A DNA stretch of 64,000 nt from Eggerthellaceae bacterium (GTDB lineage: Bacteria; Actinomycetota; Coriobacteriia; Coriobacteriales; Eggerthellaceae), in contig JAFSHA010000017.1 of assembly GCA_017440565.1 (NCBI GenBank), positions 695 through 64,694 on the forward strand, written 5' to 3'. How positions within the stretch are numbered: the first letter of the stretch is position 1; every line of letters starts with the position of its first letter. The translations under genes and the position numbers were made by a program. Positions 12,070-56,086 of this stretch are shown here, in pieces. The notes beneath the pieces are model-generated. The model was not told where the DNA came from and made no database searches. It was given only the letters and a program-made list of their open reading frames with translations.

Positions 12070-12071
12070 GC

Positions 12072-13835: not shown

Positions 13836-13872
13836 GCCCGCCCCCTGTTTCTCATCCTGCATCAGCCGCACC

Positions 13873-13878
13873 ATTATA
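13873..13878 (-). promoter_or_regulatory. Candidate -10 box (TATAAT) for the kinase/regulator genes
   Basis: Minus-strand TATAAT about 40 nt upstream of the proposed kinase start, in the 99-nt gap after the chaperone gene. Confidence 0.25.
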
Positions 13879-13934
13879 CGGCCGCGCAACCGCGAAGGGC
13901 CTCGCAAGGCAAGACCCATGCGCGCACGGTGCGC

Positions 13935-14639
13935 CTATTCGACGTAGTAGCGCTCCTCGACAATGGATTCGACCGCTTGTGCGCCAAGGGCATCGGCGAG
14001 CGCGGCAAGCGTGCCCTCGGTAACGCCCGCGATAGCAGCATAGAAGGCCGACTTCGCGCGACGCTGCACGTTGCCCAAGTACATGGGAGCGAATACCAGC
14101 ACGTGATTGGAAAGGAAGTCGCGCAAGGCGGAAAGCGCCTCCTCAGCGGCCTTTGTATCACCTGCCTCATAGGCGGTGGCGGCGGCGTCAAGCAGGTGCG
14201 CCGCAAACGCAAGCTCGATGCCAATGTGATCGTCGGGCTCGGTTTCCGCACGGTCGAAGCGCAGACCGTGCGTACGATAGAAGGCACGCACCTCAAGCGT
14301 GGTAGGTCCAAATACGGTGGAATCATCCGTGCGGTAGACCGACTCGTAGGGCGAGGTGTGGCTTGCGCCGATCATGTAGAACAGGTAGGTGCAGTCAAGG
14401 TGCACCTCGCGCGCGAGGGTCGCGATCCCCTCTCCTTCGCCTGCAGCTAGCGCATCGTGGAAAAGGCGTGCAGCCTTAGGCGCCACCTGAGAAAACGGAG
14501 GGTCGAGAAACATGGCGCGGTCCGCCACGAAAGCCTCAAGCTGATCAGCCGGATCGGCGAAAAGACCCCATGAGCAAAACGAGCACAGCGCCTGATACGC
14601 CCGGCAACTCTCCGCAGTAAGTTCGATCGTCTCGTTCAT
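13935..14639 (-). CDS. TorD/DmsD-family redox enzyme maturation chaperone
   Basis: 234 aa. SPYESVY and EPDDHIGIELAFAAHL are typical of TorD-like chaperones. It lies downstream of dmsAB. Confidence 0.8.
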   Translation of the reverse strand: MNETIELTAESCRAYQALCSFCSWGLFADPADQLEAFVADRAMFLDPPFSQVAPKAARLFHDALAAGEGEGIATLAREVHLDCTYLFYMIGASHTSPYESVYRTDDSTVFGPTTLEVRAFYRTHGLRFDRAETEPDDHIGIELAFAAHLLDAAATAYEAGDTKAAEEALSALRDFLSNHVLVFAPMYLGNVQRRAKSAFYAAIAGVTEGTLAALADALGAQAVESIVEERYYVE

Positions 14640-14697
14640 AGGTTCTTCTTTCTTCGAGTAAGCGAAATTAAGACACGCAGGTTGGCGTTAGTAAGTC

Positions 14698-14734
14698 GAA
14701 ATGGGTCAACGAACCGGGCTCGTTGACCCATTTC
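14698..14734 (-). promoter_or_regulatory. Perfect 15-bp stem-loop between dmsB and the chaperone gene
   Basis: GAAATGGGTCAACGA / TCGTTGACCCATTTC with a 7-nt loop. A second 8-bp stem lies at 14739-14764, right after the dmsB stop. Confidence 0.7.
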
Positions 14735-14768
14735 AGGATTCCGGCGACCTGGCGGCCGCCGGAACTAA

Positions 14769-15377
14769 TTACTGCTCGTGGGAAACTTCCATCGGGTTCA
14801 GCAGCGTGCCGCCCTTCGCAGCGTCACGATGCAGGCCGAACACCACATGAGGCAACGTCTCGGCGGTCAGCTCGCCGATAACGGCAGCGTCGCCATGGGC
14901 TGCGCGCAGCTCCTCGATGTCGCCGAACTCCAGCGCGCGCACCGGGCAGGCCTTCGCACACGTGGGGTTGGGGGTGCCATCAGCGCTCTCGTCGCTGCAG
15001 AGGATGCACTTGTGAGACTTGCCATCGGAAAGCTGCACGGGATGACCGTAGGGGCAGCTCTTCTCGCAAGTCATGCAGCCGATGCAGGTTTCCTTGTCGT
15101 TGTTGACGATACCGGTAACCTCGTCCTTGGTCATAGCACCGGTCGGGCAGTTAGCCACGCAGGCCGGCTCTTCGCAATGACCGCAGGTCACGGATGCGTA
15201 GTAGGTGAACACGGTGTGGGCAAGCGCACCAGACTCGTTAGCAGTCCATTCGCCGCCGCCGAACTCGAACACCTTGCGGAACTTCGCAGGAACCTCAAGA
15301 TCGTTGCGATCCATGCAAGAGGTCATGCAGGCCTTGCAGCCAGTGCAGATGTCAGTGTTAACGTAAAAACCGTACAT
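14769..15377 (-). CDS. dmsB: DMSO reductase-type 4Fe-4S subunit (DmsB-like)
   Basis: Four Cys clusters: CTGCKACMTSC, CGHCEEPACVANCP, CIGCMTCEKSCP, CILC...C..CP. Confidence 0.9.
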   Translation of the reverse strand: MYGFYVNTDICTGCKACMTSCMDRNDLEVPAKFRKVFEFGGGEWTANESGALAHTVFTYYASVTCGHCEEPACVANCPTGAMTKDEVTGIVNNDKETCIGCMTCEKSCPYGHPVQLSDGKSHKCILCSDESADGTPNPTCAKACPVRALEFGDIEELRAAHGDAAVIGELTAETLPHVVFGLHRDAAKGGTLLNPMEVSHEQ

Positions 15378-15389
15378 TGCTTATCCCCC

Positions 15390-46334: not shown

Positions 46335-46664
46335 CTACCCCACGGCTATGACAGGAAGCGGCTCGATGGCCTCTATGGCGTCACGGTCGAGGTCGAGCGA
46401 ATCCCACAGGTCGACGCCGTGCTGCAAATTAAGCCAGTAACGGGGAGACGTTCCGAACAGGCGCGCCAGGCGAAGGGCCATGTCGGGGCTTACTCCCCGA
46501 CGTTCACGCACAAGCTCGTTGACGCTTTGGCGGGAAGTCGAGAGCAAGGTTGCCAGCTGCGCGACGGTAAGCCCGTAGTCGGGCATGAACTCCTCGCGCA
46601 GCACCTCGCCAGGATGCGTGGGCCTGCGGGAAACAAGAATCATATCGTCACGAACAGTTGCCAT
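46335..46664 (-). CDS. higA: HigA-family antitoxin (XRE HTH)
   Basis: THPGEVLREEFM...LTVAQLATLLSTSRQSVNELVRERRGVSPDMALRLARLFGTSPRYWLNLQ. Confidence 0.9.
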   Translation of the reverse strand: MATVRDDMILVSRRPTHPGEVLREEFMPDYGLTVAQLATLLSTSRQSVNELVRERRGVSPDMALRLARLFGTSPRYWLNLQHGVDLWDSLDLDRDAIEAIEPLPVIAVG

Positions 46665-46673
46665 GTCGCCACC

Positions 46674-46958
46674 TCATCGATGATAGTCGCACAGTTCGAC
46701 GTCGTAGGCATCGCAGCCGACGAACTTGAAGCAAATGCGCCATTGATCGTTCACGTAAATAGAATGCAGACCAAACCTGTCGCCCTGCAGCATGTGGAGT
46801 CGGTTTCCCGGAGGAACCCGCAAATCATCGAGGGAGGTTGCCGAGTCGAGCATGTCAAGCTTACGAAGCGCGCGCTTGAGCACATCTGCGGGAAGGCGCT
46901 TTGACTCGCCATCGCAAAAGAGAGCCTCGGTGTGTTTGTCGGCGAACGATTTGATCAT
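46674..46958 (-). CDS. higB: HigB-type (RelE superfamily) toxin
   Basis: This is the C-terminal part of ORF 46674..47675: MIKSFADKHTEALF...GDRFGLHSIYVNDQWRICFKF. An alternative ATG lies at 46964. TACAAT sits immediately upstream, so the mRNA may be leaderless. Confidence 0.85.
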   Translation of the reverse strand: MIKSFADKHTEALFCDGESKRLPADVLKRALRKLDMLDSATSLDDLRVPPGNRLHMLQGDRFGLHSIYVNDQWRICFKFVGCDAYDVELCDYHR

Positions 46959-47002
46959 GCCCATATTGTAACGTGTAACGTGATGCGTGACAAGCATGAT
47001 AA

Positions 47003-47037
47003 CAAAAAAGCCCTCCGCTAGCGAATTGCGGAGGGCT
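47003..47037 (-). terminator. Intrinsic terminator ending the second reductase operon
   Basis: Minus strand AGCCCTCCGC-AATTCGCTA-GCGGAGGGCT followed by TTTTTTG. Confidence 0.8.
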
Positions 47038-47068
47038 TGATGCGTCGCGAGAAAACCTCGAGCTTTCG

Positions 47069-47749
47069 CTAGGATGCAGCCTCGGCCTTGCGGTCGGCCG
47101 CGTGGCGCCACAGGCGCAGGGCCAGATAGGCCACGAACACAACCGAGTACACCGCGATGCCCACCATCGAGGACGCGCCGCCCGCAAGCGCCGAGGGCGC
47201 GAGCATGAACATGAGGTGCACGTAGGTGAGCAGGAAGAACGGGTAGGCCAAAAGCTGAACGCGCTTCCACGTGCGGGCGCGCATGTGCTTCTTCACGAAG
47301 TTGAAGGATGTAACGCCAAGCACGAGCAGCAGCGCGAACAGCACGAGGGCCACCGCGAACGACGCCATGACATGCCCTTCGAGCGAGCCCGAGAGGGCGC
47401 GCTGGCCGTAGGGCACGAGGTACATGCACATGTGACCCATGCACAGGATCCACGCGACGATGGACAGCTCGGCGCGAACCGAGCGCATGCGCAGGCCGAG
47501 CCTGGAGTCCTTCGGCAGCACGCCGATGAACATGACCACCGTAAACAGGGCGAGCGCCACCATGCAGCGACGCACGAGCAGGATGAGCGGCTTCCACCAG
47601 CCGCCGTCGATGACGTCGTACACGCCGGCGAACAGAACCGCCACCGCGACGACAGCCAGCACGTAGAACAGCCACGGCACTTTACGGATGGCGTCGGCCA
47701 GCGCCACGGAAAGCGCGGCGGTTACCGCCAGAATGAGTGCGAAGGTCAT
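47069..47749 (-). CDS. Six-to-seven-TM membrane protein resembling the ferric-reductase/MsrQ (YedZ) haem-b domain
   Basis: Trimmed to ATG 47747-47749 after GGGGAG, 8 nt after the chaperone stop. Intramembrane His in ILCMGHMCMY and LTYVHLMF. TSFNFVKKHMRARTWKRVQLLAYPFFLLTYVH parallels the MsrQ TS...W...Y......H pattern. Confidence 0.55.
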   Translation of the reverse strand: MTFALILAVTAALSVALADAIRKVPWLFYVLAVVAVAVLFAGVYDVIDGGWWKPLILLVRRCMVALALFTVVMFIGVLPKDSRLGLRMRSVRAELSIVAWILCMGHMCMYLVPYGQRALSGSLEGHVMASFAVALVLFALLLVLGVTSFNFVKKHMRARTWKRVQLLAYPFFLLTYVHLMFMLAPSALAGGASSMVGIAVYSVVFVAYLALRLWRHAADRKAEAAS

Positions 47750-47757
47750 TGTCTCCC

Positions 47758-48417
47758 CTATCTTGAGAGGGCTTGCTTGAGAAGGATGCCCGCAGCCTGG
47801 AAGAACGGGATGCGGGCGAGCTCGGCGAGCTGCCCGGCGAGCCACTCGGCGTACTCCGCGAAGTGCGTGGCGACGAACACGTCGTAGTCGCCCTCGACGA
47901 TCTGAGCGTTGGGCGGCGCCGCGACGGCGCGCGCGTTCACTAGGCAGAGGAACTTCAGGAACTCGCACACCGTGCCCACGTGGTCGACCGGGTCGTTCAC
48001 GTGCCCAGCCGAAAGGTCCTTTGCCACACCGCATCGCAGCATGAAGTGCTCGATCTCCACGGTGTCGCGCCCCACGAACAGCATGCCCTGCTGCCCGCGC
48101 TTCTCGGCCGCACGCACGCCGACGAAGGGCGTGATTGGCGGAAACTTCTCCCCAATGAAGAGATGGGTGTGCTCGCGACGAAGAGCATGGAAGACCTCAT
48201 CCGCATCGGATCCCTCATAGGGCAAAAGAAGGCTGCGAACCGCGCCCGTCACCTTGGGATCGCACCCAAGAGCACCGAAAGCCTCCTCGCAGGCGGCCGC
48301 GTACTCGCCGGCGGCGACGGCTTCGGCCAGCTCGCGCGTGGGCAGCAGAAACGCCAGGGACAGAAGCTCCCACGCCGTCGCGCGGCTCATCCACAGTTCG
48401 GGGGTGATTTCGTTCAT
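47758..48417 (-). CDS. TorD/DmsD-family chaperone (second copy)
   Basis: 219 aa. HTHLFIG, DPVDHVGTVCEFLKFL. Confidence 0.75.
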   Translation of the reverse strand: MNEITPELWMSRATAWELLSLAFLLPTRELAEAVAAGEYAAACEEAFGALGCDPKVTGAVRSLLLPYEGSDADEVFHALRREHTHLFIGEKFPPITPFVGVRAAEKRGQQGMLFVGRDTVEIEHFMLRCGVAKDLSAGHVNDPVDHVGTVCEFLKFLCLVNARAVAAPPNAQIVEGDYDVFVATHFAEYAEWLAGQLAELARIPFFQAAGILLKQALSR

Positions 48418-48443
48418 TTTCGGTTCCTCGCATTCATTGCAAA

Positions 48444-48470
48444 GGGGCTGGCGCCGCTAGCGCCAGCCCC
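48444..48470 (-). promoter_or_regulatory. Perfect 11-bp GC stem-loop between the FeS-subunit and chaperone genes
   Basis: GGGGCTGGCGC-5 nt-GCGCCAGCCCC. The minus strand follows with TTTGCAATG. Confidence 0.7.
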
Positions 48471-48493
48471 AAGTTTCAGCCTAAAGCAATTTC

Positions 48494-49120
48494 CTACTTC
48501 AGGAAGAAGACATTCGGGCCAGTTCCCTGGTCGGCCAGCAGCTGGTCGTACTCACGGGCAGCCAGCACCTTGGAGACCTCGGACTCGGGATCGTCCAGGT
48601 CGCCGAAATAGCGAGCCACTGCCGGGCAGAGGTCGGCGCACAAGGCACGCTCGCCGCGGTCAAGGCGCTCCACGCAGAAGGTGCACTTCTCCATAGTGGA
48701 AGGCTTGTGGTCGGGCACCGACCAGTCACCCATCTTGAAGTCAACGGGCCACGTAGGCTCCTCGGGAATGAGGGTACGCACGCCCTCGTACGGGCAGGCG
48801 GCAACGCAGGTCTCGCAACCGATGCACTTCTCAGCATCGATGAGAACCACGCCGTCAGCCTCGCGCTTGTACGCGGCGCCCGTCGGGCACACCTCGACGC
48901 AAGCAGGGTTATCGCAGTGCTGGCAAGCCAGCGTGTAGAACTTCATCACCACAGCGTCCGGGTAGGAGCCACCAGCCGTGCGGAAGTAATCGCCGCCCTC
49001 GGTAACGGCCCTGTTGTATGCGACGCCGTTGGGCAGGTTATGTTCGACGCGGCACGACATGGAGCACAGGTTGCAGCCCATGCAGCGCTTCGTGTCGATT
49101 GCCATCGCGTACTTAGTCAT
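48494..49120 (-). CDS. 4Fe-4S ferredoxin-type electron-transfer subunit (PsrB/NrfC/DmsB-like)
   Basis: CMGCNLCSMSC, CQHCDNPACVEVCP, CIGCETCVAACP, CTFC...C..CP. Confidence 0.9.
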   Translation of the reverse strand: MTKYAMAIDTKRCMGCNLCSMSCRVEHNLPNGVAYNRAVTEGGDYFRTAGGSYPDAVVMKFYTLACQHCDNPACVEVCPTGAAYKREADGVVLIDAEKCIGCETCVAACPYEGVRTLIPEEPTWPVDFKMGDWSVPDHKPSTMEKCTFCVERLDRGERALCADLCPAVARYFGDLDDPESEVSKVLAAREYDQLLADQGTGPNVFFLK

Positions 49121-49133
49121 CTCTCACGCCTCC

Positions 49134-51605
49134 CTAAATCTTCTCGACTTCGCAGATCCAGTCGTTGTAGTTCGAGTTGCTCGTAACCGGGTCGGGGCAC
49201 CAGCGGGTAAGCGCCTGCGCGAAGCCCTCGTCGAACTCGTCCCATGCGAAGCCGTGGGGCACCCAGACGGAGTCCTTGCGGATGCCCTCGGTAACCAGCG
49301 CCTTCAGCACGCACGTGCCGTTGTCGTTGTAGATGCGCACGGTGTCACCGGTCTTGATGCCGCGAGCGGCAGCGGCCTCGGTGTGGATGCGGCAGAACGG
49401 CTTGCCGTCGACGGTGCGGTAGTCGTCGAGCCACTGGTTGTGGATCCACAGGGACTGGCCGTGGTACAGGTCGTGGTTGGAGAAGCCGTAGAGCGGGTAC
49501 TTCTCGCGGTCCGGGTTGTCGGCGTAGGCCTCGATGGACTTCTTGTAGTACGGCAGGCGGTCCTGCAGCGGGAAGGTCTGGCCCCAGTTGTCACGCGGGG
49601 GCATGACCTCGAGGTAGAACTGGGTGCGGCCAAGGGCGTTGCTCTCCTGGCCCTGGTAGACGTTGATCTTGTAGTCGCCCATGATGACGCCGTTCTTGCT
49701 GTAGGCGTCGAAGCCGAGGCCGGCTTCGAGGTTCTCGGGGGTGTCGAGCATTGCGCGCAGATAGCCCTCGCCGTCCATGGGGAACAGGTCGGTCAGGCCG
49801 AGCTTGTTGGAAAGCTCGCGGATGATGTCGAAGTCAGCCTTGGCCTCGCCGATGGGCTCGATGGCCTTCTGGCCGTAGATGCCGCCCTGGGTGAACTCGA
49901 TGGATTCCCACGGCATGGCGGCGGGAAGCAGCAGGTCGGACCAGTGGGCGGAAGTGGTCATGATGGTGTCGACCGTGCAGATGAAGTCGATCTTCTCATA
50001 GGCCTCGAGCAGCTTCATCGGGCCGGAGAAGTTGTCGAGCGGGTTGCAGGTCTGGATGATGAGCACGCGGACCGGGTAGTCCTCGCCAGCCCACTTGCCG
50101 GTCTCCATGATCTCGACCAGGTAGTCGCCGGTGATGGTCTTGCAGGGCTTGGCGTCCTCGATGGCCAGGTTGGAGAGATCCAATTTGACGGGAGCCTTGA
50201 ACATGGTGGTGGTGGAGTGATCGAGGCTGATGCTGCCACGGTAGGAGCCGCCGGGGATGCCGACGCTGCCCGTGAGGGAGGCCAGAAGGGCCGCCGGGTA
50301 GTACACGCGCCAGGACTCGTAGGTGTGCTCGAGGCCGTAGTTGATGTAGTAGGTGGTGGGACCTTCGGTGGCACAGGTGCGCGCGAGGCGCTCGATCTGC
50401 TCGGCGGGGATGCCGCACTCCTCGGCTGCGAACTCAACGGTGAAAGGCGCGATGTTCTCAAGCGCAGCGTCAAAGACGGGGCGGACCTTGATGCCCTCGG
50501 CGTCGAAGGAGCCGCGGATGGCGGGGTTGGTGGACTCAGTGTGCAGGACGAAGTCCTGGGCATCCTCGTCCCAAACCAGCACGCCGTCGGCCTCGGAGCC
50601 GGCCTCGGCCTTGCCCAGGGTGGACAGGCGCAGATAAGCGCCGTTCTCGTCGATGAGCAGCGGGGCGACGGACTTGTTCTTCACGAACTCCCAATTGGCG
50701 AGATCGTTATCGACGATATAGTTCGCCATGGCGCACATGAGGGCCGAGTCGGTGCCGGTGCGTACGGGAACCCACTCGTCGGAATGGGCGGCGGTGGAGG
50801 TGTAGAGCGGATCGAGCGTGATGAGCTTGGCGCCGTTTTCCTCCTTGGCCTTGCTGATCCAATGCCACGCGCTGCGACAGAAGGACGCCTCGGCGGGGTT
50901 GGAGCCCCAGGAGAGGATGGTCTTGGCGTTGGCGATGTCCTCGAGCGCGTTGGTAGGGGTCTTCAACAGGATGAAGTTGAAGATGATACCCGCCATGTCG
51001 TCACCGACCGAAAGCATGGTGACGCCGAGCTTCTGGGCAAGGCGGGAGACGCCGAAGCCGCTCGAGAAGGATGTCGCGCTGTTCCAATAGATAACCGGCG
51101 CGTTGTTCAGGTACGAGTACATGTTGCCAGCACCAAGTTGCCAGCAGATGGACGGCGCGCCGTACTCGTCGATGGCAGCCTGCATCTTCTCAGCCAGCAT
51201 GTCGAGCGCCTCGTCCCAGGTGATGCGCTCCCACTCGCCGCTGCCGCGCTCGCCAACGCGCTTCATGGGATACTGAAGGCGGGCCGGGCCGTACAGACGC
51301 AGCGGATTGGTGACGCCCTTCATGCAGCCAACCTGCACGCCCTCATGCTCCTTGGGGAATACAAGCGGCATGGTGCTTACGATCTTGCCCTCGCGCACGG
51401 TGGCCTTAAGGGCGCACCTACCGCCGCAGTTGCCGCGGCAGGTGCTGATGTAGTACGACTCCTCGGGAGCGGGCGCGTTGTCGGCGGCGTCGCCGGACGT
51501 GTCGACGCTCGAGCAGCCAGCCGCCGAGGCGGCAGCCAGAGCGCCCGCAGCCAGAGCCGTGGTCGCAAGGAACGACCTTCGGGTCAGCTGTTTGGATTTC
51601 TCCAT
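49134..51605 (-). CDS. Molybdopterin (bis-PGD) oxidoreductase catalytic subunit, divergent DMSO-reductase-family member; Tat signal plus lipobox
   Basis: MEKSKQLTRRSFLATTALAAG...AAGC. FS0-type CRGNCGGRC...GC. 823 aa. It is clearly different from the DmsA paralog at 15390-17996. Confidence 0.85.
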   Translation of the reverse strand: MEKSKQLTRRSFLATTALAAGALAAASAAGCSSVDTSGDAADNAPAPEESYYISTCRGNCGGRCALKATVREGKIVSTMPLVFPKEHEGVQVGCMKGVTNPLRLYGPARLQYPMKRVGERGSGEWERITWDEALDMLAEKMQAAIDEYGAPSICWQLGAGNMYSYLNNAPVIYWNSATSFSSGFGVSRLAQKLGVTMLSVGDDMAGIIFNFILLKTPTNALEDIANAKTILSWGSNPAEASFCRSAWHWISKAKEENGAKLITLDPLYTSTAAHSDEWVPVRTGTDSALMCAMANYIVDNDLANWEFVKNKSVAPLLIDENGAYLRLSTLGKAEAGSEADGVLVWDEDAQDFVLHTESTNPAIRGSFDAEGIKVRPVFDAALENIAPFTVEFAAEECGIPAEQIERLARTCATEGPTTYYINYGLEHTYESWRVYYPAALLASLTGSVGIPGGSYRGSISLDHSTTTMFKAPVKLDLSNLAIEDAKPCKTITGDYLVEIMETGKWAGEDYPVRVLIIQTCNPLDNFSGPMKLLEAYEKIDFICTVDTIMTTSAHWSDLLLPAAMPWESIEFTQGGIYGQKAIEPIGEAKADFDIIRELSNKLGLTDLFPMDGEGYLRAMLDTPENLEAGLGFDAYSKNGVIMGDYKINVYQGQESNALGRTQFYLEVMPPRDNWGQTFPLQDRLPYYKKSIEAYADNPDREKYPLYGFSNHDLYHGQSLWIHNQWLDDYRTVDGKPFCRIHTEAAAARGIKTGDTVRIYNDNGTCVLKALVTEGIRKDSVWVPHGFAWDEFDEGFAQALTRWCPDPVTSNSNYNDWICEVEKI

Positions 51606-51740
51606 TCTCTCCTCCTTTTCCTATGCGGAGATGCGTCTGACGGGTCCGTCATTCGCCTCACCACACTCAGAGGGATCCTTGCCGCCACCCAAACGGGCTG
51701 CAAGGCCCTCCCCTCTCATTCGGGACCTCTCGACCCCTCA
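51606..51740 (-). promoter_or_regulatory. Highly structured 5' leader of the second reductase operon (candidate cis-regulatory RNA)
   Basis: Minus-strand elements: GGGGUC-GAGA-GGUCCC hairpin (51721-36); a 12-bp bulged hairpin GGAGGGCCUUGC...GCAAGG-AU-CCCUCU (51668-710); UGACG-GACC-CGUCA (51637-50); UCUCC can pair with the GGAGGAGA Shine-Dalgarno. Confidence 0.45.
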
Positions 51741-51762
51741 TGGCGCAGTATATCAAGCAATA

Positions 51763-51836
51763 CTAGGATTGAATAGGCTTAATCCGATATTAATACTGAG
51801 TAAGATAGGGTTAACTTGTAGGATTGTCTCAGGATT
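51763..51836 (-). promoter_or_regulatory. AT-richer promoter region with repeated CAATCCTA-type boxes
   Basis: Plus-strand TAGGATTG occurs at 51763-70 and 51818-25, and CAGGATTT at 51829-36. The same octamer recurs upstream of the nrfD-like gene. Confidence 0.4.
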
Positions 51837-52840
51837 TATCGCCCCATGCCGCGCTTCACCTCGTCGCCGAGCACGTCGCCGAAACCCTCGCTGAAGGAGC
51901 TGGGCACCACCACGGTGCCGCCGGTGTCGCGCACGCTCTCGTACAGCAGGTGCATCTGACGAAGGCGCAGCGCGGCATCGCCGCCGCCGTACACCTCCCC
52001 TATGTCGCCCACCATATCGGCGATGTCCTGCTCGGCCTCCATGAGGATGATGCGCGCCTTCCTGCGCTGCTCGGCCTGCGCCTCAAGGCTCATGGCGTCA
52101 CGCAGGTCGGGCGGCATCAGGATGTCGCGAATCTTCACCGACATCACGGCCACGCCCCATTCCGCCGCCACGTCCTCGAGCGCCTGCTTGATGTCCTCGT
52201 CAAGCTGCTCGCGGCGGATGGCCACCTCGGCCGCGGAAAGCCGGCCGATGGCATCGCGCAAGGCCGCCTGCGCGCTCAGGTCAACCGCGCGCGTAAAGTC
52301 GGCCACCTCGTTGCACGCCGCCTTCGCGTCGTACACCATCCACAGCAAAACGGCGCTCACGTCAAGCGGCACCAGGTCCGCCGTAAGCGTTTCCTCGGCT
52401 TCGATAGTGGTGGTGCGCACACGGCAGTCGACGCGCATGGCGTTCTGCTCAAAAAACGGAATGGTCCAGAAAATGCCCGGGCCACTCACGCGGTTGAACT
52501 TGCCCAGGCGCAGCACCACCACGCGTTCCCACTGCTGCGCGATATGCACGGTCATGGTGGCCAGCACCGCGAGAATGAACGACACCAGCGCACCCGCCAC
52601 GCCAAGCTTTCCCGTCGGCAGGATGCTCAGGCCCAAAAACGCCGCAAGCACCACCACGAACACGAGCGCGGAAAACAGGGGCACGCCCACGCTCGAGGAC
52701 CTCTCGCCCACCGGCTGGCTGGTATCAGCCGGCACCAGACGCGCCTTTCGCAAGGCGCCGCTTCCTACGCCGGGCACGCTCGCGACCATGGCAGCCGCCT
52801 CGTGGCCGCGCCTTCCGAAACCATGAGCCGAACGCGCCAT
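51836..52840 (-). CDS. SPFH/Band-7 (stomatin/prohibitin-like) membrane protein
   Basis: Trimmed to ATG 52838-52840 after GGAGG, 1 nt after the gntR stop. TM segments, then VVLRLGKFNRVSGPGIFWTIPF...AEQRRKARII. Confidence 0.85.
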   Translation of the reverse strand: MARSAHGFGRRGHEAAAMVASVPGVGSGALRKARLVPADTSQPVGERSSSVGVPLFSALVFVVVLAAFLGLSILPTGKLGVAGALVSFILAVLATMTVHIAQQWERVVVLRLGKFNRVSGPGIFWTIPFFEQNAMRVDCRVRTTTIEAEETLTADLVPLDVSAVLLWMVYDAKAACNEVADFTRAVDLSAQAALRDAIGRLSAAEVAIRREQLDEDIKQALEDVAAEWGVAVMSVKIRDILMPPDLRDAMSLEAQAEQRRKARIILMEAEQDIADMVGDIGEVYGGGDAALRLRQMHLLYESVRDTGGTVVVPSSFSEGFGDVLGDEVKRGMGR

Positions 52841-52841
52841 G

Positions 52842-53324
52842 CTAGGCCTCCTTCCGCGAATCATCCGCATCGCCTTCAGCACCTACCGCAATGATGTTCG
52901 TTCCCGGCACGCGCCTGGGCACCGATTCCATCATGCGCAGGTACTTCGCGCGCTGCGTCATGAGCGCCGCCGCATCCTCGAAGCCCACGCCCAGCTGCCG
53001 GCACGCGCGCAGGCAGTCGTCAAGGATAGCTTCGATGTCGCCCGACACATCCGCGTCGTTTTTCACCACGTCGGAAACGAACACGCCTTTCCCTCGCACG
53101 GAAACCACGTAGCCGTCTGACTGCAGGCTCAGATACGCCTTGTTCACCGTGTTGAAGTTGATGGAGATGTCGGCCGCCAACTCGCGAATCTTGGGAAGTT
53201 GATCGCCGGGCTTGAAGTACCCGGTCGAGATGAGATAGGCGATGCGCTTGCGCAGCTGCATCCACACCGCGACGTTCGAATCCTTGTCAACCTCGAAGGT
53301 AAAGCTTTTGGGATGCGATTCCAT
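52842..53324 (-). CDS. GntR-family transcriptional regulator, short (YtrA-like) type
   Basis: Trimmed to ATG 53322-53324 after AGGAGG. PGDQLPKIRELAADISINFNTVNKAYLSLQSDGYVVSVRGKGVFV. Only about 70 aa follow the wHTH. Confidence 0.85.
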   Translation of the reverse strand: MESHPKSFTFEVDKDSNVAVWMQLRKRIAYLISTGYFKPGDQLPKIRELAADISINFNTVNKAYLSLQSDGYVVSVRGKGVFVSDVVKNDADVSGDIEAILDDCLRACRQLGVGFEDAAALMTQRAKYLRMMESVPRRVPGTNIIAVGAEGDADDSRKEA

Positions 53325-53332
53325 TGTTCCTC

Positions 53333-54244
53333 CTAAAACCCCACAACGGGATGCATTCCCGCCATGACGACACAGTAACGAAGGCAAAATCCCCCGACGA
53401 AGGCGAAAAGAGCCGGTGCGAGGGCCTTGAGCGAATAAGGCGCAAGCGTGCGTTGAGAGCGAAGCAATGCAAGATCGAAGGCAAGCGGGACGGCGATGCC
53501 AAGAAGCGTGAAGCCCACCCACCAGGCGGCGGAGAGGTCACCCGAAAGAAGGCGGGCAGCCGAGGCTTGCGCCACCACGGCCGACCCGGTATCGGTTTGA
53601 AGGGCCACGAATACGAAGCCGACCGCGCACACCGCCTCGATAAGCAGGATCGCTCCGTCAAGCTGCACGAGCCTGCGCATCCAAGCGGAAAAGGCAGCTG
53701 AAAGGCCCAGCGCATTGCAAAGCGCCACGAAGGCAGACAGCGCGCACGAAGATGCCGAAGCCGCGAACAGGGCAACGAGCCACGGGGTGTTCCACAAGGG
53801 GACGGCAAACATGCTGGCCAAAAACAAGCCCGTGTACACCACGACAACGGCTCCAATAAGAGCCTCGAGTACAAGCAAGGCACGCATGAAGAGCACGCCT
53901 CGAGCGGGCTCGGGAGAGCGCCAACGTATGGCAAGGGCCAGACTGAGGAGGATGCCGGCGGCAATCGACCACGCGCCCAGAACAAGATAACCGGGATTCG
54001 GGGTGAGCACGAGGTATTTGAGCGCGGCCACGTTGCCGGCGTCGGCCATCAGGAACAACGCCGAGAGAAGCAGGCCGCCCGCACACGCCACAAATGACGC
54101 GCCCAGCAGACGCCGCTGCTCGAGAGCGAGACCCGCGCGAAGATAGCTGACGGGAATGCTCAGGGCGGAAGCAGCCGCGACCACGCACAAGCCACCGCTT
54201 AAACCACCCAGGAAAAGGTAGCAGATCACGGCAACGTCAAACAC
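53333..54244 (-). CDS. NrfD/PsrC-family polytopic membrane anchor
   Basis: GTG start after GGGAGGAGG. ICYLFLGGLSGG, VPLWNTPWL. About 8 TM, 303 aa. Confidence 0.75.
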   Translation of the reverse strand: MFDVAVICYLFLGGLSGGLCVVAAASALSIPVSYLRAGLALEQRRLLGASFVACAGGLLLSALFLMADAGNVAALKYLVLTPNPGYLVLGAWSIAAGILLSLALAIRWRSPEPARGVLFMRALLVLEALIGAVVVVYTGLFLASMFAVPLWNTPWLVALFAASASSCALSAFVALCNALGLSAAFSAWMRRLVQLDGAILLIEAVCAVGFVFVALQTDTGSAVVAQASAARLLSGDLSAAWWVGFTLLGIAVPLAFDLALLRSQRTLAPYSLKALAPALFAFVGGFCLRYCVVMAGMHPVVGF

Positions 54245-54263
54245 AAGCCACCTCCTCCCTCGA

Positions 54264-54310
54264 CAATCCTAAGCATAATAGGGGGATTGTAGCATTCTTT
54301 TCTTAGGATA
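54264..54310 (-). promoter_or_regulatory. Promoter region of the nrfD-like gene, with a CAATCCTA box and an 8-bp inverted repeat
   Basis: CAATCCTA at 54264-71. ATCCTAAG (54266-73) and CTTAGGAT (54302-09) are inverted repeats. Minus-strand TACAAT lies at 54287-92. Confidence 0.4.
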
Positions 54311-54545
54311 AGCCCTTCACACCGAGGCACCCTACGAAGTCGTGTTCAAAAAAGGACGTCGCCCTTCGGTTCGCGGTCGCGAGGCTACGAACACACTTCA
54401 TATCCAGGCGGCACGGGAGCAATCGATCGATGCCCCACGAACAACATGTCGGGCCCAGATGCCTTGCGCTCCGCAGCCGCAAACGCAGGGCTCTAGCCTT
54501 GAAAACACCTTCGCGCGCCCATTCAGCGAACCCTCAAAGTGCGCC

Positions 54546-54551
54546 TATAAT
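54546..54551 (+). promoter_or_regulatory. Candidate -10 box (TATAAT) for the 119-aa gene
   Basis: TATAAT 35 nt upstream of ATG 54587, with TTCAGC 18 nt further upstream. Confidence 0.3.
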
Positions 54552-54586
54552 AGACGAGACCGTCTGCATGACGAAAGGGAGGGGCA

Positions 54587-54946
54587 ATGGATTACGACTT
54601 TGTCTTCGATAGCGAAAAGAAGATATGGGGGCGCAACTACGAAGAAGTCGAAATCGACAGGGAAACAAAACCCAAAGTGAGCATCCTTTTCGAAAGAGAA
54701 GGAATTGTCCTCTGCGCCGACTGCGACGGCAACGCATTGTTCTGCGACCTTGACAACAACGTGATTCATGAGGGCAAAGTCGAGTCGAGCAATTATTTCT
54801 CACGCGTCCACGTGCGCGTATCCGAGGGAAAACCCATCGCGGAGTTTCCCATAACGAAGTGGATCGATCATTACCCCCACTGCGACGGGGAGCACGACCG
54901 CTGGTCCGAGATCACCATAGATACCGTCACCTTCCGCTGTCCTTAA
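54587..54946 (+). CDS. Hypothetical 119-aa protein (Cys/His-containing)
   Basis: Strong RBS GGGAGGGG and lower GC than the surroundings. CADCDGN...HYPHCDGEH. I did not recognise a family. Confidence 0.55.
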   Translation: MDYDFVFDSEKKIWGRNYEEVEIDRETKPKVSILFEREGIVLCADCDGNALFCDLDNNVIHEGKVESSNYFSRVHVRVSEGKPIAEFPITKWIDHYPHCDGEHDRWSEITIDTVTFRCP

Positions 54947-54973
54947 CGACAATTCGACGGCGCGAACGACTTC

Positions 54974-55128
54974 GTGTTCAAAATCGGCCTCCTTGTAGGC
55001 ATGATGAGGCTCTTTTCTCATGAAAAATAGCCTCCAGATGGAGTTGAAGGTCGTTTTTCTCCACGAATTTATTTCATCTGTGGATTATTTTTCGCATGAT
55101 TTTCTACAAGGAGGCCGATTTTTAACAC
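54974..55128. mobile_element. MITE-like element: 25-bp terminal inverted repeats flanking a ~105-bp AT-rich core
   Basis: GTGTTCAAAATCGGCCTCCTTGTAG (54974-98) versus the reverse complement of 55104-28 gives 24/25 matches. No ORF lies inside. Related GTGTTCAAAA copies sit at 54341-50 and 55161-70. Confidence 0.55.
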
Positions 55129-55188
55129 GGGGGGCCTCATCCCGCCGACAAGGATGCGTTTTTTGAACACAACTTCGCTTAGCGCCAA

Positions 55189-55422
55189 TCATTCGGACTT
55201 TGGCGCTCGATGCCAAGCGCTATGCGGTGACCGCTTAGGGCTAGGCGAGAAAATGCGCACATGGAACAGGGTAAACACAGCAAGCGCTCCCAAAACCAGA
55301 AGCGCAAGCAGCAATCCGGAATAGGCAGAAAGCGCGGCAACGCCGATAGCCGCCACGTTCACTCCGGCGATAAACCACACCACCCCGGCTACGATCAGCA
55401 GCTTCTCCTTCTGAATGCGCAT
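55189..55422 (-). CDS. Small two-TM membrane protein, possibly a truncated remnant
   Basis: ATG 55420-55422 after GAGGGGAAG. MRIQKEKLLIVAGVVWFIAGVNVAAIGV... The C-terminal 20 aa look out of character, and the ORF ends next to the MITE-like element. Confidence 0.35.
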   Translation of the reverse strand: MRIQKEKLLIVAGVVWFIAGVNVAAIGVAALSAYSGLLLALLVLGALAVFTLFHVRIFSPSPKRSPHSAWHRAPKSE

Positions 55423-55528
55423 CGCTTCCCCTCTCATTGCATGCAATCAAAATGTTAGTTAAATTGTATGCAATTTGCTAACAGGATCAAGGGGTGCGTC
55501 GAAAGTGGGGCAATTCTCCCATAAAAGC

Positions 55529-55822: not shown

Positions 55823-56035
55823 TTGCAACCTCCTGGATGAGCCGCGCCGAGATCGCATCGGTCTCGGCGGATGGCCTGCGTAGCCAAGGACACGATAGCG
55901 CACGGGAGGCGGCATGCGGGAAACGTTGAGCCAAAAGACCGGTTTGCATGGAAACACCACCTGGTATTGCAACCCGCCGTTCTGCCCGCGCTCGCCTCGA
56001 TGGCGGACTTCGACGTCGCGCCATGCCGCAGAGGT

Positions 56036-56041
56036 TATAAT
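56036..56041 (+). promoter_or_regulatory. Candidate -10 box (TATAAT) for the beta-helix lipoprotein gene
   Basis: TATAAT 46 nt upstream of ATG 56087. Confidence 0.25.
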
Positions 56042-56086
56042 CAGCTCGGACGTCCCCATGAGGGACTGGCGTTTGGCGAGAAAGGG

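What the first reader, a model, noticed from the sequence alone, without database searches (positions are those of the whole stretch)
47069..54244. Atypically organised molybdopterin oxidoreductase locus: anchor gene split off by a regulator and an SPFH gene, plus a second MsrQ-like membrane partner
Minus-strand order is as follows. An NrfD/PsrC-like anchor (53333-54244) is followed after 8 nt by a short GntR (52842-53324), then after 1 nt by an SPFH/stomatin-like protein (51836-52840). Next comes a ~230-nt structured, AT-richer spacer. It is followed by a Tat/lipobox bis-PGD catalytic subunit (49134-51605), a four-cluster FeS subunit, a stem-loop, a TorD-like chaperone, and after 8 nt a 226-aa polytopic protein with an MsrQ/ferric-reductase-like His pattern. 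A strong terminator closes the locus. Canonical DmsABC/PsrABC/NrfBCD-type operons keep A, B and one anchor together. Here the NrfD-type anchor is transcriptionally joined to a regulator and a membrane-scaffold protein. A second, unrelated haem-b-type membrane protein sits at the operon end. MsrQ normally partners the sulfite-oxidase-fold enzyme MsrP, not bis-PGD enzymes. The catalytic subunit is not the housekeeping DmsA; that copy lies at 15390-17996. Its substrate is therefore unknown. In gut Coriobacteriia, this enzyme family has diversified into reductases and dehydroxylases for host and dietary metabolites.
Basis: partly seen in the sequence, partly recalled or inferred. Interest (0 to 1): 0.78.

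Follow-up and report, generated by a model that had tools for sequence, protein, structure and literature searches.

The report
Repressor-controlled molybdenum reductase with unusual membrane partners
This gut-actinobacterial locus encodes an exported molybdenum reductase of unknown substrate whose membrane partner is a haem-b protein of the ferric-reductase type, and it sits beside a conserved three-gene cassette (membrane protein, small repressor, scaffold protein) that appears to switch it on and off and that has not turned up in the literature I could search.

Summary
The seven genes, their spacings, the spacer, the stem-loop and the terminator are all present as described. The interpretation needs revising.

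- **The NrfD-GntR-SPFH trio is a portable cassette, not this enzyme's split-off anchor.** It is Eggerthellaceae-wide. It sits beside molybdoenzyme operons of many catalytic clades (26-78% identity), several times per genome. It is often next to operons that carry their own canonical 400-aa NrfD anchor.
- **The GntR is a short YtrA-type regulator.** Its palindromic operator (AATCCTAGGATT) lies on the -35/spacer region of both the cassette promoter and the reductase promoter. This holds in about 13 independent loci, including loci where the two units converge. A second GntR clade uses TGTCATATGACA in the same positions.
- **The 226-aa protein is a ferric-reductase-fold membrane protein with one bis-His haem site.** It recurs as the last gene of A-B-TorD-FRD operons, including operons that lack the trio. 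It is therefore the likelier electron-entry subunit.
- **The catalytic subunit is a Tat lipoprotein with an invariant Asp at the predicted Mo-ligand position.** It belongs to no characterised clade, and its substrate is unknown.

Whether the NrfD-like protein acts as sensor, assembly factor or second anchor is unresolved. Verdict: a real feature and a new variant of known kinds, of moderate to high interest.

The parts
54263..54310 (-). Promoter and operator region of the cassette. It holds half-sites TATCCTAAG (54302-54310, at the -35 position), ACAATCC (54284-54290, overlapping the -10) and CTTAGGATTGT (54263-54273, about +10), plus an extended -10, TGCTACAAT (54286-54294).
   Evidence: Coordinates are. 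CAATCCTA occurs only 3 times in the 64-kb window, all in this locus's two promoter regions. The same motif lies 24-80 nt upstream of nrfD-like genes in related loci. Promoter and TSS positions are inferred.
53333..54244 (-). NrfD-like 8-TM membrane protein (303 aa), first gene of the cassette. It belongs to a short, divergent NrfD subfamily.
   Evidence: PF03916 gives 54 bits. The AF2 model has pLDDT 83, and Foldseek's top hits are PsrC 2vpw_C and ActC/ActF. It is homologous to but distant from canonical 400-aa anchors (hhalign probability 92%, 21% identity). The subfamily holds 486 clusters at 50% identity with E<=1e-30.
52842..53324 (-). Short YtrA-type GntR regulator (160 aa), the predicted repressor of both promoters.
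   Evidence: Only the wHTH domain PF00392 hits, with no effector domain. The best NCBIfam hits include the short regulators PmtR and Rv1152. Operator palindromes co-vary with the GntR clade.
51836..52840 (-). SPFH/Band-7 (stomatin/HflK-like) membrane scaffold protein (334 aa).
   Evidence: PF01145 gives 126 bits. It is always co-linear with the NrfD-like and GntR genes.
51747..51836 (-). Reductase promoter region. It holds operator O1, AATCCTAGTATT (51759-51770), distal half-sites CAATCCTACAAG (51815-51826) and AATCCTGAG (51828-51836), and an extended -10, TGATATACT (51747-51755).
   Evidence: The proximal operator lies 163-190 nt before the catalytic start codon and about 6-14 nt upstream of a TGnTAnnnT box in eight independent loci with catalytic identity 50-100% (WIN, L002/L004, L005, L012, L017, L018, L019, L033). 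L032 sits at 209 nt. GC here is 0.34.
51606..51746 (-). Predicted ~140-nt 5' leader with three hairpins separated by GGAGG-rich linkers. The first hairpin is GGGGUC-GAGA-GGUCCC (51722-51737).
   Evidence: The fold has z = -2.17. There is no Rfam match. A 5' hairpin at the same position is conserved in related loci, with consensus GAATyCGGCCGATTC in the second clade.
49134..51605 (-). Catalytic bis-MGD subunit (823 aa). It is a Tat-exported lipoprotein with an FS0 cluster and an invariant Asp203 at the predicted Mo-ligand position.
   Evidence: Domain hits are. C56/C64/C94 and D203 are invariant in 115 homologues, and C60 is Cys in 114 of 115. D202/D203 align with EbdA Asp223 and the PcrA GD motif.
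48494..49120 (-). Four-cluster [4Fe-4S] electron-transfer subunit (208 aa) with no signal peptide.
   Evidence: Domain hits are. The best NCBIfam hit is DsrO at 171.6 bits, below the 200 cut-off. The four complete Cys motifs were read from the sequence.
48444..48470 (-). 12-bp GC-rich intra-operon stem-loop between the FeS and chaperone genes.
   Evidence: z = -2.98. A strong hairpin at this position is conserved in related loci although its sequence differs.
47758..48417 (-). TorD/NarJ-family maturation chaperone (219 aa).
   Evidence: PF02613 gives 50.9 bits.
47069..47749 (-). Ferric-reductase-fold polytopic membrane protein (226 aa) with one predicted bis-His haem b site (H106, H178). It is the likely electron-entry subunit.
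   Evidence: PF01794 gives 30.1 bits. Only two His are invariant in 26 homologues. The AF2 model has pLDDT 90, and Foldseek's top hits are STEAP4/2/1 and NOX. It is the terminal gene of A-B-D-FRD operons with and without the trio.
47003..47038 (-). Intrinsic terminator closing the reductase operon.
   Evidence: It has an 11-bp stem plus a run of six U, with z = -3.23.

Best explanation
The locus is two functionally linked transcription units.

**Unit 1 (nrfD-like, gntR, SPFH)** is a portable control and accessory cassette.
- Its YtrA-type GntR binds palindromic operators (consensus AATCCTAGGATT).
- The operators overlap the -35/spacer or -10 region of its own promoter and of the reductase promoter. 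It therefore represses both.
- This step rests on comparative footprinting. Actual binding is inferred.

**Unit 2 (A-B-TorD-FRD)** encodes an extracytoplasmic reductase.
- The Asp-type bis-MGD subunit matures with the TorD-like chaperone. It is exported by Tat together with the signal-less four-cluster FeS subunit, and it is lipid-anchored at Cys31. These steps are inferred from motifs and from established Tat and DmsAB biology.
- Electrons from the menaquinol pool most likely enter through the ferric-reductase-fold protein, which has a single bis-His haem b. They then pass along the four FeS clusters and FS0 to the Mo centre, where an unknown acceptor is reduced.
- The FRD gene occupies the place that NarI has in narGHJI.

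**The NrfD-like protein and the SPFH protein** are probably not the primary anchor. More likely they form a membrane module that sets the activity of the effector-domain-less repressor, for example by sequestering it, and/or scaffolds assembly of the exported enzyme. This is the least certain step.

**Step confidences**
- The GntR controls both promoters: about 0.8.
- FRD is the operon's membrane redox subunit: about 0.65.
- NrfD-like/SPFH act in signalling or assembly and are not the main quinol oxidase: about 0.45.
For: **1. The trio is conserved as a unit.** It is intact in about 30 Eggerthellaceae loci. It lies next to catalytic subunits of 26-78% identity. It occurs more than once per genome, for example in OZ221973 (L018 + L026), CAJFUR (L019, L024 twice, L037) and CALBGP (L017 + L030).

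**2. Many trio loci have their own canonical anchor.** In L021, L022, L025-27, L030-32, L035, L045 and L046 the FeS gene is followed directly by a ~400-aa NrfD with PF03916 at 140-163 bits. The trio protein scores only 54 bits.

**3. Operator evidence.**
- CAATCCTA occurs 3 times in the 64-kb window, all in the two promoter regions (expected 0.55).
- In 695 kb of related loci, 43 of 49 matches to AATCCTAGGATT (<=2 mismatches) lie upstream of an nrfD-like or a catalytic gene. This includes L005 and L033, where the two units are convergent.
- The position relative to a TGnTAnnnT box is fixed.
- A second GntR clade has TGTCATATGACA / ATTGTCTTATGATAAT at the same two places.

**4. The trio and the reductase recombine independently.** L013's trio is the closest to the window's (55/80/80%) but its catalytic subunit is only 51% identical. 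L002 shows the reverse (42/62/72% against 78%). L032 combines the class-I operator with a C400-type operon.

**5. A-B-TorD-FRD operons exist without the trio.** In Slackia heliotrinireducens (L051) the upstream neighbour, divergently transcribed, is a GerE/LuxR-type regulator gene. In a Gordonibacter-like contig (L052) a histidine kinase and a response regulator gene lie upstream. The regulatory link is inferred from adjacency only. Their FRD proteins are 55% identical to the window's although the catalytic subunits are only 30-33% identical.

**6. FRD fold and haem site**.

**7. Asp ligand, FS0, Tat signal and lipobox**.

**8. Precedent.** A YtrA-family repressor is switched by physical sequestration to its co-encoded membrane partner, and its regulon includes a flotillin (bioRxiv 10.64898/2026.02.18.706565).
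Against: - **Some close loci have no other membrane subunit.** L018, L019 and L033 have A-B-TorD with neither FRD nor a 400-aa NrfD within the sequence held. There the NrfD-like protein is the only candidate membrane subunit.
- **The NrfD-like protein keeps a real PsrC/ActC fold**, so an electron-transfer role is not excluded.
- **No binding, transcript or haem data exist.** The TSS and the promoter boxes are inferred from consensus only.
- **The match to E. coli MsrQ is weak** (hhalign E = 0.007, probability 5.5%). The Pfam FRD score is only just above threshold.
- **The Mo-ligand assignment is not exact.** The pairwise alignment with EbdA puts Asp223 opposite D202, while D203 is the invariant residue.
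- **The closest catalytic orthologue lacks both features.** L001 (95% identity) has neither a trio nor this operator in the 8 kb upstream. The coupling can therefore be lost.
Confidence: 0.55

Rival explanations
1. The 303-aa NrfD-like protein is the true menaquinol-oxidising anchor on which the A-B module docks. It merely happens to be transcribed with a regulator and a scaffold protein. The FRD-like protein is an additional or alternative electron route.
For: - The protein has a genuine PsrC/ActC fold and a Pfam NrfD hit.
- It is always close to an A-B pair.
- Loci L018, L019 and L033 encode no other candidate membrane subunit.
Against: - At least 11 trio loci also encode a canonical 400-aa NrfD directly after the FeS gene.
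- A-B-TorD-FRD operons function as stand-alone units without any trio.
- The NrfD-like protein is the fastest-evolving protein of the locus. Its relationships do not track those of the FeS subunit it would have to dock.
- In L008 and L037 the trio is not adjacent to an A-B operon.
Confidence: 0.25
2. Both membrane proteins are structural subunits of one larger complex, in the manner of DsrMKJOP or HmcABCDEF. Those complexes combine a periplasmic FeS protein, an NrfD-type subunit and a haem-b membrane subunit. Another parallel is the ActC/ActF pair of alternative complex III. In this model SPFH is the assembly scaffold and the GntR simply autoregulates.
For: - The FeS subunit's best NCBIfam hit is DsrO (171.6 bits against a 200 cut-off).
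- The NrfD-like model superposes on both ActC and ActF.
- Class-II loci hold two NrfD-family genes. The window holds an NrfD-like gene plus a haem-b-type gene.
Against: - The partner membrane protein varies between loci: FRD, the 400-aa NrfD, DUF4405, or none. A fixed heteromer is therefore unlikely.
- The trio and the reductase units recombine freely and can be convergent.
- No cytoplasmic DsrK/HmcF-like subunit is present.
Confidence: 0.15
3. The trio is a general envelope-stress or membrane-homeostasis module of the YtrA type. It is unrelated to the reductase, and the adjacency is fortuitous or reflects a shared genomic island.
For: - YtrA-type regulators classically control membrane and transport operons.
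- A streptococcal YtrA-like regulon includes a flotillin.
- IS elements flank the trio in L002 and L005.
Against: - The same operator that precedes the trio also precedes the catalytic gene at a fixed distance in about 13 independent loci. This holds even when the two units are at opposite ends of the cluster.
- Adjacency to Mo-enzyme operons holds in nearly all loci with enough sequence.
Confidence: 0.05

Closest known systems
PsrABC / DmsABC-type complex iron-sulfur molybdoenzymes
   Same: All have a Tat-exported bis-MGD catalytic subunit with an FS0 cluster and a four-[4Fe-4S] subunit that hitch-hikes on it. A TorD/DmsD-family chaperone matures the enzyme, and electrons come from the menaquinol pool through a membrane subunit.
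   Different: - No NrfD/DmsC gene follows the FeS gene here.
- The operon's membrane gene is a ferric-reductase-fold protein.
- The predicted Mo ligand is Asp, not Ser or Cys.
- The catalytic subunit is a lipoprotein.
- TIGR02166 gives 294 bits against a 778 cut-off.
NarGHJI and type II DMSO-reductase-family operons (SerABDC, DdhABDC, ClrABDC, EbdABCD, PcrABCD)
   Same: They share the gene order A-B-chaperone-haem-b subunit and an Asp at the Mo-ligand position. The closest solved structures are PcrA and EbdA.
   Different: - The catalytic subunit is much smaller (823 aa).
- The FeS subunit is short and DmsB/DsrO-like, with four complete Cys motifs and no 3Fe-4S signature.
- The haem-b partner is neither NarI nor a soluble EbdC-type protein. 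It is an FRD-fold membrane protein.
- TIGR03479 gives 290 bits against a 985 cut-off.
MsrPQ (YedYZ)
   Same: A ferric-reductase-domain membrane haem-b protein supplies electrons to a Tat-exported molybdoenzyme outside the cytoplasm. The TM3 and distal TM5 His residues are kept.
   Different: - The partner is a bis-MGD A-B module, not the sulfite-oxidase-fold MsrP.
- The MsrQ His151 position is an invariant Gln.
- No NCBIfam MsrQ model hits the protein.
- The profile match to E. coli MsrQ is marginal.
YtrA-family repressor and membrane-partner modules (for example MbrR-MbrAB of Streptococcus salivarius; PmtR; B. subtilis YtrA)
   Same: All have a short GntR with no effector domain, encoded in an operon with membrane proteins. 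The regulator binds palindromes on promoters, including its own. In streptococci the regulon includes a flotillin, and the repressor is switched by sequestration to the membrane partner.
   Different: - The partner here is an NrfD-fold 8-TM protein plus an SPFH protein, not an ABC transporter.
- The regulated output is a respiratory-type reductase, not a defence system.
- Sequestration is untested here.
10-12-TM LuxR-type regulators of Eggerthella lenta reductases (DadR, HcdR, CadR)
   Same: These are membrane-embedded regulatory devices encoded next to Coriobacteriia molybdenum and flavin reductases. They control the adjacent enzyme operon (PMC9734109; bioRxiv 10.1101/2022.12.26.521950).
   Different: - Those are single fused polypeptides with a LuxR HTH, and they act as activators.
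- Here the membrane part and the GntR-type HTH are separate proteins.
- The operator position points to repression.

Membership tests
NrfD/PsrC membrane anchor family (303-aa protein) | Pfam PF03916 match above the gathering score | tested here: met
   54 bits against 25.8, covering residues 2-297.
NrfD/PsrC membrane anchor family (303-aa protein) | Eight-helix PsrC-type fold | tested here: met
   The AF2 model has pLDDT 83. Foldseek finds PsrC 2vpw_C (TMt 0.71) and ActC 6lod_C/8k9e_C (TMq 0.74-0.77).
NrfD/PsrC membrane anchor family (303-aa protein) | Encoded as the C gene directly with its A and B partners, as the only NrfD-type subunit of the enzyme | tested here: not met
   It is separated from A-B by the GntR and SPFH genes and a promoter. 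In at least 11 related loci a canonical 400-aa NrfD follows the FeS gene as well.
NrfD/PsrC membrane anchor family (303-aa protein) | Quinol-binding site and docking surface for the FeS subunit | not testable with these tools
   There are no sequence-level hits to PsrC in the PDB.
MsrQ (YedZ) | Ferric_reduct transmembrane domain | tested here: met
   PF01794 gives 30.1 bits against 28. Foldseek's top hits are STEAP4/2/1 and NOX, with probability 1.0.
MsrQ (YedZ) | Match to a curated MsrQ model, or clear homology to E. coli MsrQ | tested here: not met
   NCBIfam returns only MamZ at 20 bits. hhalign against E. coli MsrQ gives E = 0.007 and probability 5.5%.
MsrQ (YedZ) | Conserved His set (E. 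coli H91, H151, H164) | tested here: inconclusive
   Two invariant His (H106, H178) are present. The H151 position is an invariant Gln165. The TM3 register in the alignment is off by one helical turn.
MsrQ (YedZ) | Adjacent MsrP (sulfite-oxidase-fold) partner gene | tested here: not met
   The neighbours are bis-MGD A, FeS B and TorD in every locus examined.
DmsA/YnfE subfamily | TIGR02166 score at or above cut-off, and a Ser Mo ligand | tested here: not met
   293.6 bits against 777.7, with partial coverage. An invariant Asp occupies the ligand position.
Type II DMSO reductase family | Asp Mo ligand | tested here: met
   D203 is invariant in 115 of 115 homologues. D202/D203 align to EbdA Asp223 and the PcrA GD motif. 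The assignment rests on alignment only.
Type II DMSO reductase family | TIGR03479/03478 scores at cut-off; beta subunit with a 3Fe-4S signature; soluble or NarI-type haem-b gamma subunit | tested here: not met
   Scores are 290 against 985 and 106 against 481. All four Cys groups are complete (sequence). The haem-b candidate has the FRD fold.
YtrA subfamily of GntR regulators | N-terminal GntR wHTH followed by a short (~50-70 aa) helical C-terminus with no FCD, UTRA or aminotransferase domain | tested here: met
   Only PF00392 hits, at residues 24-83 of 160. The best NCBIfam hits include the short regulators PmtR and Rv1152.
YtrA subfamily of GntR regulators | Palindromic operator on its own promoter (autoregulation) | tested here: met
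   Conserved inverted repeats overlap the predicted promoter of the nrfD-like gene in the window and in about 13 related loci. Binding itself was not tested.
SPFH/Band 7 | PF01145 domain after an N-terminal membrane segment | tested here: met
   126 bits over residues 100-270, with a hydrophobic stretch at about residues 60-95. No NfeD partner gene was seen.

The most novel reading that the evidence does not exclude
Eggerthellaceae possess an undescribed three-protein membrane-to-DNA signalling device dedicated to respiratory reductases.
- An NrfD-fold protein has been co-opted from quinol-oxidising anchor to sensor. It may sense the quinone pool, the electron acceptor, or the docking state of the exported enzyme.
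- Together with an SPFH scaffold, it captures or releases a YtrA-type repressor that gates the neighbouring reductase operon.
- In parallel, ferric-reductase-fold mono-haem-b proteins form a new class of membrane electron-entry subunit for bis-MGD/FeS reductases, replacing NrfD/DmsC/NarI.
Probability: 0.3. Interest if true: 0.8.

Novelty: new variant of a known kind. Interest (0 to 1): 0.62.

Why it matters
Eggerthellaceae carry tens of extracytoplasmic molybdenum reductases per genome. These enzymes transform dietary, host and drug molecules, and most have no known substrate. The regulation described so far for them is by transmembrane LuxR-type activators and two-component systems.

A second, repressor-based control cassette with readable operators would bring three practical gains:
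- **Predicting regulons.** Units regulated together could be read directly from sequence.
- **Finding inducers.** Operator-reporter fusions, or gntR deletions that de-repress silent enzymes, offer a route to inducers and hence to substrates.
- **Heterologous expression.** Knowing which membrane partner each enzyme needs addresses a known bottleneck in expressing these enzymes.

A ferric-reductase-fold haem-b protein serving a bis-MGD/FeS module would also add a new type of membrane subunit to the known set for complex iron-sulfur molybdoenzymes. It would link the MsrQ/STEAP/NOX superfamily to anaerobic respiration in Gram-positive bacteria.

Tried and rejected
- **Riboswitch in the spacer.** Rfam gave no match, neither on the whole window at gathering thresholds nor on the spacer at E<=10.
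- **Leader alignment.** A MAFFT alignment of ten leaders (A3) was too poor for a covariation test. I did not build a covariance model, and I claim only positional conservation of the hairpins.
- **Sequence searches of the PDB.** The NrfD-like protein, its profile and the FRD protein found nothing meaningful. Only fold comparison worked.
- **Word-indexed homologue search.** It returned just 20 NrfD-like proteins. The exhaustive profile search was needed to show the subfamily is large.
- **One shared anchor for all reductases of the genome.** Rejected, because several genomes carry two to four trios, each beside its own reductase.
- **Catechol dehydroxylase.** No evidence was found. E. lenta Hcdh, the one E. 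lenta catechol dehydroxylase whose length I found, is much longer (1193 aa). The Gordonibacter type lacks a Tat signal.
- **Literature searches.** Searches for Eggerthella + NrfD, Eggerthella + molybdopterin + ferric reductase, GntR + SPFH + NrfD, and YedZ + DMSO reductase + Coriobacteriia found no description of either feature.
- **The operator within the window alone.** The full palindrome is not significant there (1 hit against 0.87 expected). Its significance comes from the half-site count and from positional conservation across loci.

Full report
**1. Observation**

Pfam assigns them as follows:
- NrfD (53333-54244; 54 bits)
- GntR wHTH only (52842-53324)
- Band_7/SPFH (51836-52840; 126 bits)
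- Molybdopterin plus Molydop_binding (49134-51605)
- 4Fe-4S dicluster families (48494-49120)
- Nitrate_red_del/TorD (47758-48417)
- Ferric_reduct (47069-47749; 30.1 bits against a cut-off of 28)

Each gene has a Shine-Dalgarno sequence, and the short gaps (8, 1 and 8 nt) are as stated. The stem-loop at 48444-48470 and the terminator at 47003-47038 fold far better than shuffled sequence (z = -2.98 and -3.23). The 230-nt spacer has two parts. The first ~90 nt are AT-rich (GC 0.34). The remaining ~140 nt are GC-rich (0.62) and moderately structured (z = -2.17). No Rfam family matches.

**2. Organism and relatives**

The catalytic subunit's homologues are all from Eggerthellaceae: Raoultibacter 65-66%, Adlercreutzia equolifaciens 68%, and an unnamed assembly at 95%. 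The window therefore comes from an uncultured or poorly sampled member of that family.

**3. The trio is a conserved cassette, not a split-off anchor**

I looked at neighbourhoods of catalytic and NrfD homologues. I also scanned one genome per GTDB species with an NrfD-like profile and annotated all loci with the window's proteins. The NrfD-like, GntR and SPFH genes stay together in the same order down to 28-33% NrfD identity, almost exclusively in Eggerthellaceae.

- **Position relative to the reductase.** The trio is normally followed on the same strand, after a gap of 0.25-1.5 kb, by a catalytic gene and an FeS gene. These catalytic subunits range from 26% to 78% identity to the window's.
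- **Convergent cases.** In L005, L033 and L034 the trio converges on the reductase operon. In L005 an IS element lies between them.
- **Copy number.** Several genomes carry two to four trios.
- **Canonical anchors alongside.** In at least eleven loci the FeS gene is followed directly by a canonical ~400-aa NrfD (PF03916 at 140-163 bits) and then TorD. Those enzymes already have a standard anchor in addition to the trio's 300-aa protein.
- **Relationship of the two NrfD types.** They are homologous but distant (hhalign probability 92%, 21% identity over the 8-TM core).
- **Size of the short subfamily.** It holds 486 clusters at 50% identity with E<=1e-30, all about 290-350 aa.
- **Fold.** An AF2 model (pLDDT 83) confirms a PsrC/ActC/ActF fold.

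**4. The GntR and its operators**

The regulator has only a wHTH and a ~70-aa helical tail, which is the YtrA type.

- **Within the window.** The octamer CAATCCTA occurs three times in the whole 64-kb window. Two copies are in the spacer before the catalytic gene and one is upstream of the nrfD-like gene (expected 0.55).
- **Across loci.** The underlying element is the palindrome AATCCTAGGATT. Over 695 kb of related loci, 43 of 49 matches (<=2 mismatches) lie upstream of an nrfD-like gene or of a catalytic gene. For the nrfD-like gene most sites are 30-80 nt before the start. For the catalytic gene they are about 150-225 nt before the start, often as tandem sites 20 nt apart. This holds in L005 and L033, where the two promoters are at opposite ends of the cluster.
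- **Position in the promoter.** The proximal site sits about 6-14 nt upstream of a TGnTAnnnT (extended -10) box, centred near -26. In the window's cassette promoter the half-sites straddle the -10 and the predicted start. This geometry suggests repression by occlusion.
- **A second operator class.** A second clade of trios (GntR about 52-54% identical) carries a different palindrome, TGTCATATGACA / ATTGTCTTATGATAAT, at the same two positions. The operator therefore co-varies with the regulator.

This is a phylogenetic footprint. Binding itself is untested.

**5. Modularity**

Trio and reductase histories are decoupled. L013 has the trio closest to the window's (55/80/80%) but a catalytic subunit only 51% identical. 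L002 shows the reverse. L032 combines the first operator class with a canonical A-B-C-D operon. The nearest catalytic orthologue (L001, 95%) follows plsY, with no trio and no such operator in the 8 kb upstream.

**6. The reductase operon**

- **Catalytic subunit.** It has a Tat motif and a lipobox Cys31, both common in the family. Three of the four FS0 cysteines are invariant and the fourth, C60, is Cys in 114 of 115. Asp203 is invariant. D202/D203 align with the Asp Mo ligand of ethylbenzene dehydrogenase and with the GD motif of perchlorate reductase.
- **No characterised clade.** All curated models are missed by wide margins: TIGR02166 at 294 against 778, and TIGR03479 at 290 against 985. 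The best solved relatives score about 147 bits.
- **FeS subunit.** It has four complete cluster motifs and no signal peptide. Its best hit is DsrO, below cut-off.
- **Gene order.** A-B-chaperone-membrane haem protein is the order seen in narGHJI and in serABDC-type operons (established knowledge).

**7. The 226-aa protein**

- **Haem site.** In 26 homologues only two His are invariant: H106 in 'LGHM' and H178 in 'YVHL'. That fits a single bis-His haem.
- **Comparison with MsrQ.** In a marginal profile alignment to E. coli MsrQ, H178 matches H164. The H151 position is an invariant Gln.
- **Fold.** An AF2 model (pLDDT 90) matches STEAP4/2/1 and bacterial and eukaryotic NOX membrane domains.
- **Distribution.** The family is abundant in Eggerthellaceae (401 hits).
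- **Stand-alone operons.** A-B-TorD-FRD operons occur without any trio in Slackia heliotrinireducens, where the upstream neighbour is a divergently transcribed GerE/LuxR-type regulator gene. They also occur in a Gordonibacter-like contig, where a Tll0287-type histidine kinase and a response regulator gene lie upstream.
- **Conservation pattern.** Their FRD proteins are 55% identical to the window's although the catalytic subunits are only 30-33% identical. This is the pattern expected of a generic electron-transfer subunit, with the catalytic subunit diverging far more.

The trio thus occupies the place that other regulators occupy at sister operons.

**8. Synthesis**

The best reading is two units under one YtrA-type repressor.
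- **Unit 2** is an extracytoplasmic, lipid-anchored Asp-type bis-MGD reductase of unknown substrate. Its operon-encoded membrane partner is a mono-haem FRD-fold protein.
- **Unit 1** supplies the repressor plus two membrane proteins.

Their role is the weakest point. A recent preprint shows that YtrA-type repressors, which lack effector domains, can be switched by sequestration to their co-encoded membrane partner. That regulon even includes a flotillin. This makes a sensor or assembly role plausible for the NrfD-like/SPFH pair. Against it, L018, L019 and L033 encode no other membrane subunit within the sequence held. There the NrfD-like protein may serve as the anchor, or as one of two membrane subunits as in Dsr/Hmc complexes or alternative complex III.

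**9. Novelty**

The regulators described for Coriobacteriia reductases are 10-12-TM LuxR-type activators, two-component systems and cytosolic HTH regulators. Catechol dehydroxylase papers mention only 'a membrane anchor'. My full-text searches found no description of the NrfD-GntR-SPFH cassette, nor of an FRD-type partner for a bis-MGD enzyme. The library does not cover most subscription-journal papers, so this is absence of evidence only. I rate the finding a new variant of known kinds: a YtrA repressor module, and a complex iron-sulfur molybdoenzyme.

**10. Limits**

- All regulatory and electron-transfer steps are inferred from sequence, comparative position and predicted folds.
- Many loci come from MAGs, and some are near-duplicates. 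I count about 13 independent loci for the first operator class and about 10 for the second.
- The pattern-based genome scan could miss trios outside Eggerthellaceae.

Noticed in passing
window 11359-17996 (minus strand): This is a second molybdoenzyme locus. It has a DmsA/YnfE-like catalytic subunit (TIGR02166 767.8 bits against a 777.7 cut-off), an FeS subunit and a TorD-like chaperone, but no membrane-anchor gene. It is followed by a Tll0287-type histidine kinase and a response regulator. The same kind of two-component pair precedes a trio-less A-B-TorD-FRD operon in L052.
   Followed up: partly
window 46335-46993 (minus strand): A HigB-like toxin (46674-46958; PF05015, 70 bits) and an HTH_3 antitoxin (46335-46664) lie directly after the reductase terminator. 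They have their own near-consensus promoter, TTGTCA-17-TACAAT, at 46993-46965.
   Followed up: partly
window 54245-55500 and 55871-58366: A low-GC stretch (0.52 against about 0.63) lies upstream of the cassette. It holds ORFs with no Pfam match. It is followed by an 831-codon ORF, also without any Pfam hit, that contains an internal lipoprotein-like signal (...LLSGC). This may be a recently acquired or rearranged segment next to the cassette.
   Followed up: no
window 51722-51737; L021 9264, L024 12956 and 20862, L025 6829, L030 12666, L031 13218, L032 8027, L035 4831, L038 6205: A conserved hairpin lies about 8-10 nt after the predicted -10 box of trio-associated reductase promoters. Its consensus is GAATyCGGCCGATTC. 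In the window it is GGGGUC-GAGA-GGUCCC with G-U pairs, which argues for an RNA-level element. The strict pattern matched nine times. Eight matches lie 130-190 nt upstream of a trio-associated catalytic gene on the sense strand. The ninth (L024 20862) follows the second trio near the locus end, where the downstream gene is not held. It was not seen upstream of catalytic genes that lack a trio. Purine-rich GGAGG linkers and two more hairpins follow it. It has no Rfam match.
   Followed up: partly
window 48444-48470; FeS-TorD gaps of L002, L005, L014, L017, L033, L034: A strong GC-rich hairpin between the FeS and chaperone genes is conserved in position but not in sequence, and it is often followed by a short U-rich run. 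It may be a partial terminator or an mRNA stabiliser that sets the ratio of A-B to chaperone and FRD.
   Followed up: partly
L001 7596-8000: The closest catalytic orthologue (95% identity, GCA_054285385.1) follows plsY. It has no trio and no AATCCTAGGATT site within 8 kb upstream. Instead a perfect 14-bp palindrome, CACTCGATCGAGTG, sits before a -10-like box. This looks like regulatory rewiring between close relatives. The contig ends soon after the FeS gene, so a downstream trio cannot be excluded.
   Followed up: partly
L005 12746-13907; L002 4279-5088: IS elements (rve/HTH_Tnp_1 transposase genes) lie between the FRD gene and the convergent trio in Adlercreutzia equolifaciens, and just upstream of the trio in L002. 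Transposition may drive the shuffling of the cassette.
   Followed up: no
L039, L042-L044, L047 (Hadza-gut Eggerthellaceae MAGs): This is a variant cassette. The order is NrfD-like, SPFH, then two tandem short GntR genes. It is placed at the end of a catalytic-FeS-NrfD(400 aa)-...-DUF4405-...-TorD cluster, not before the cluster.
   Followed up: no
L027 8553-9370; L046 16717-17514; L039 4784-5693: A further recurring membrane pair occurs in some reductase loci. It consists of a ~120-aa single-TM protein with a CxxC-like motif and a ~150-aa DUF4405 protein (PF14358; weak cytochrome b561 and ferric-reductase similarity). It is another candidate haem-b partner.
   Followed up: partly
L008-L011, L037: Here the trio is not followed by an A-B operon. 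It sits in a region with CitMHS transporters, ~796-aa catalytic subunits and small ~113-aa ferredoxins. That layout resembles the soluble Gordonibacter-type dehydroxylases described in PMC7028382.
   Followed up: no
GntR C-termini in WIN, L002, L013, L017, L018 and others: Beyond the YtrA-type helical tail, the GntR proteins share a short conserved C-terminal motif (...VPGxN[IV][IV]...). It could be a docking peptide for a partner protein.
   Followed up: no
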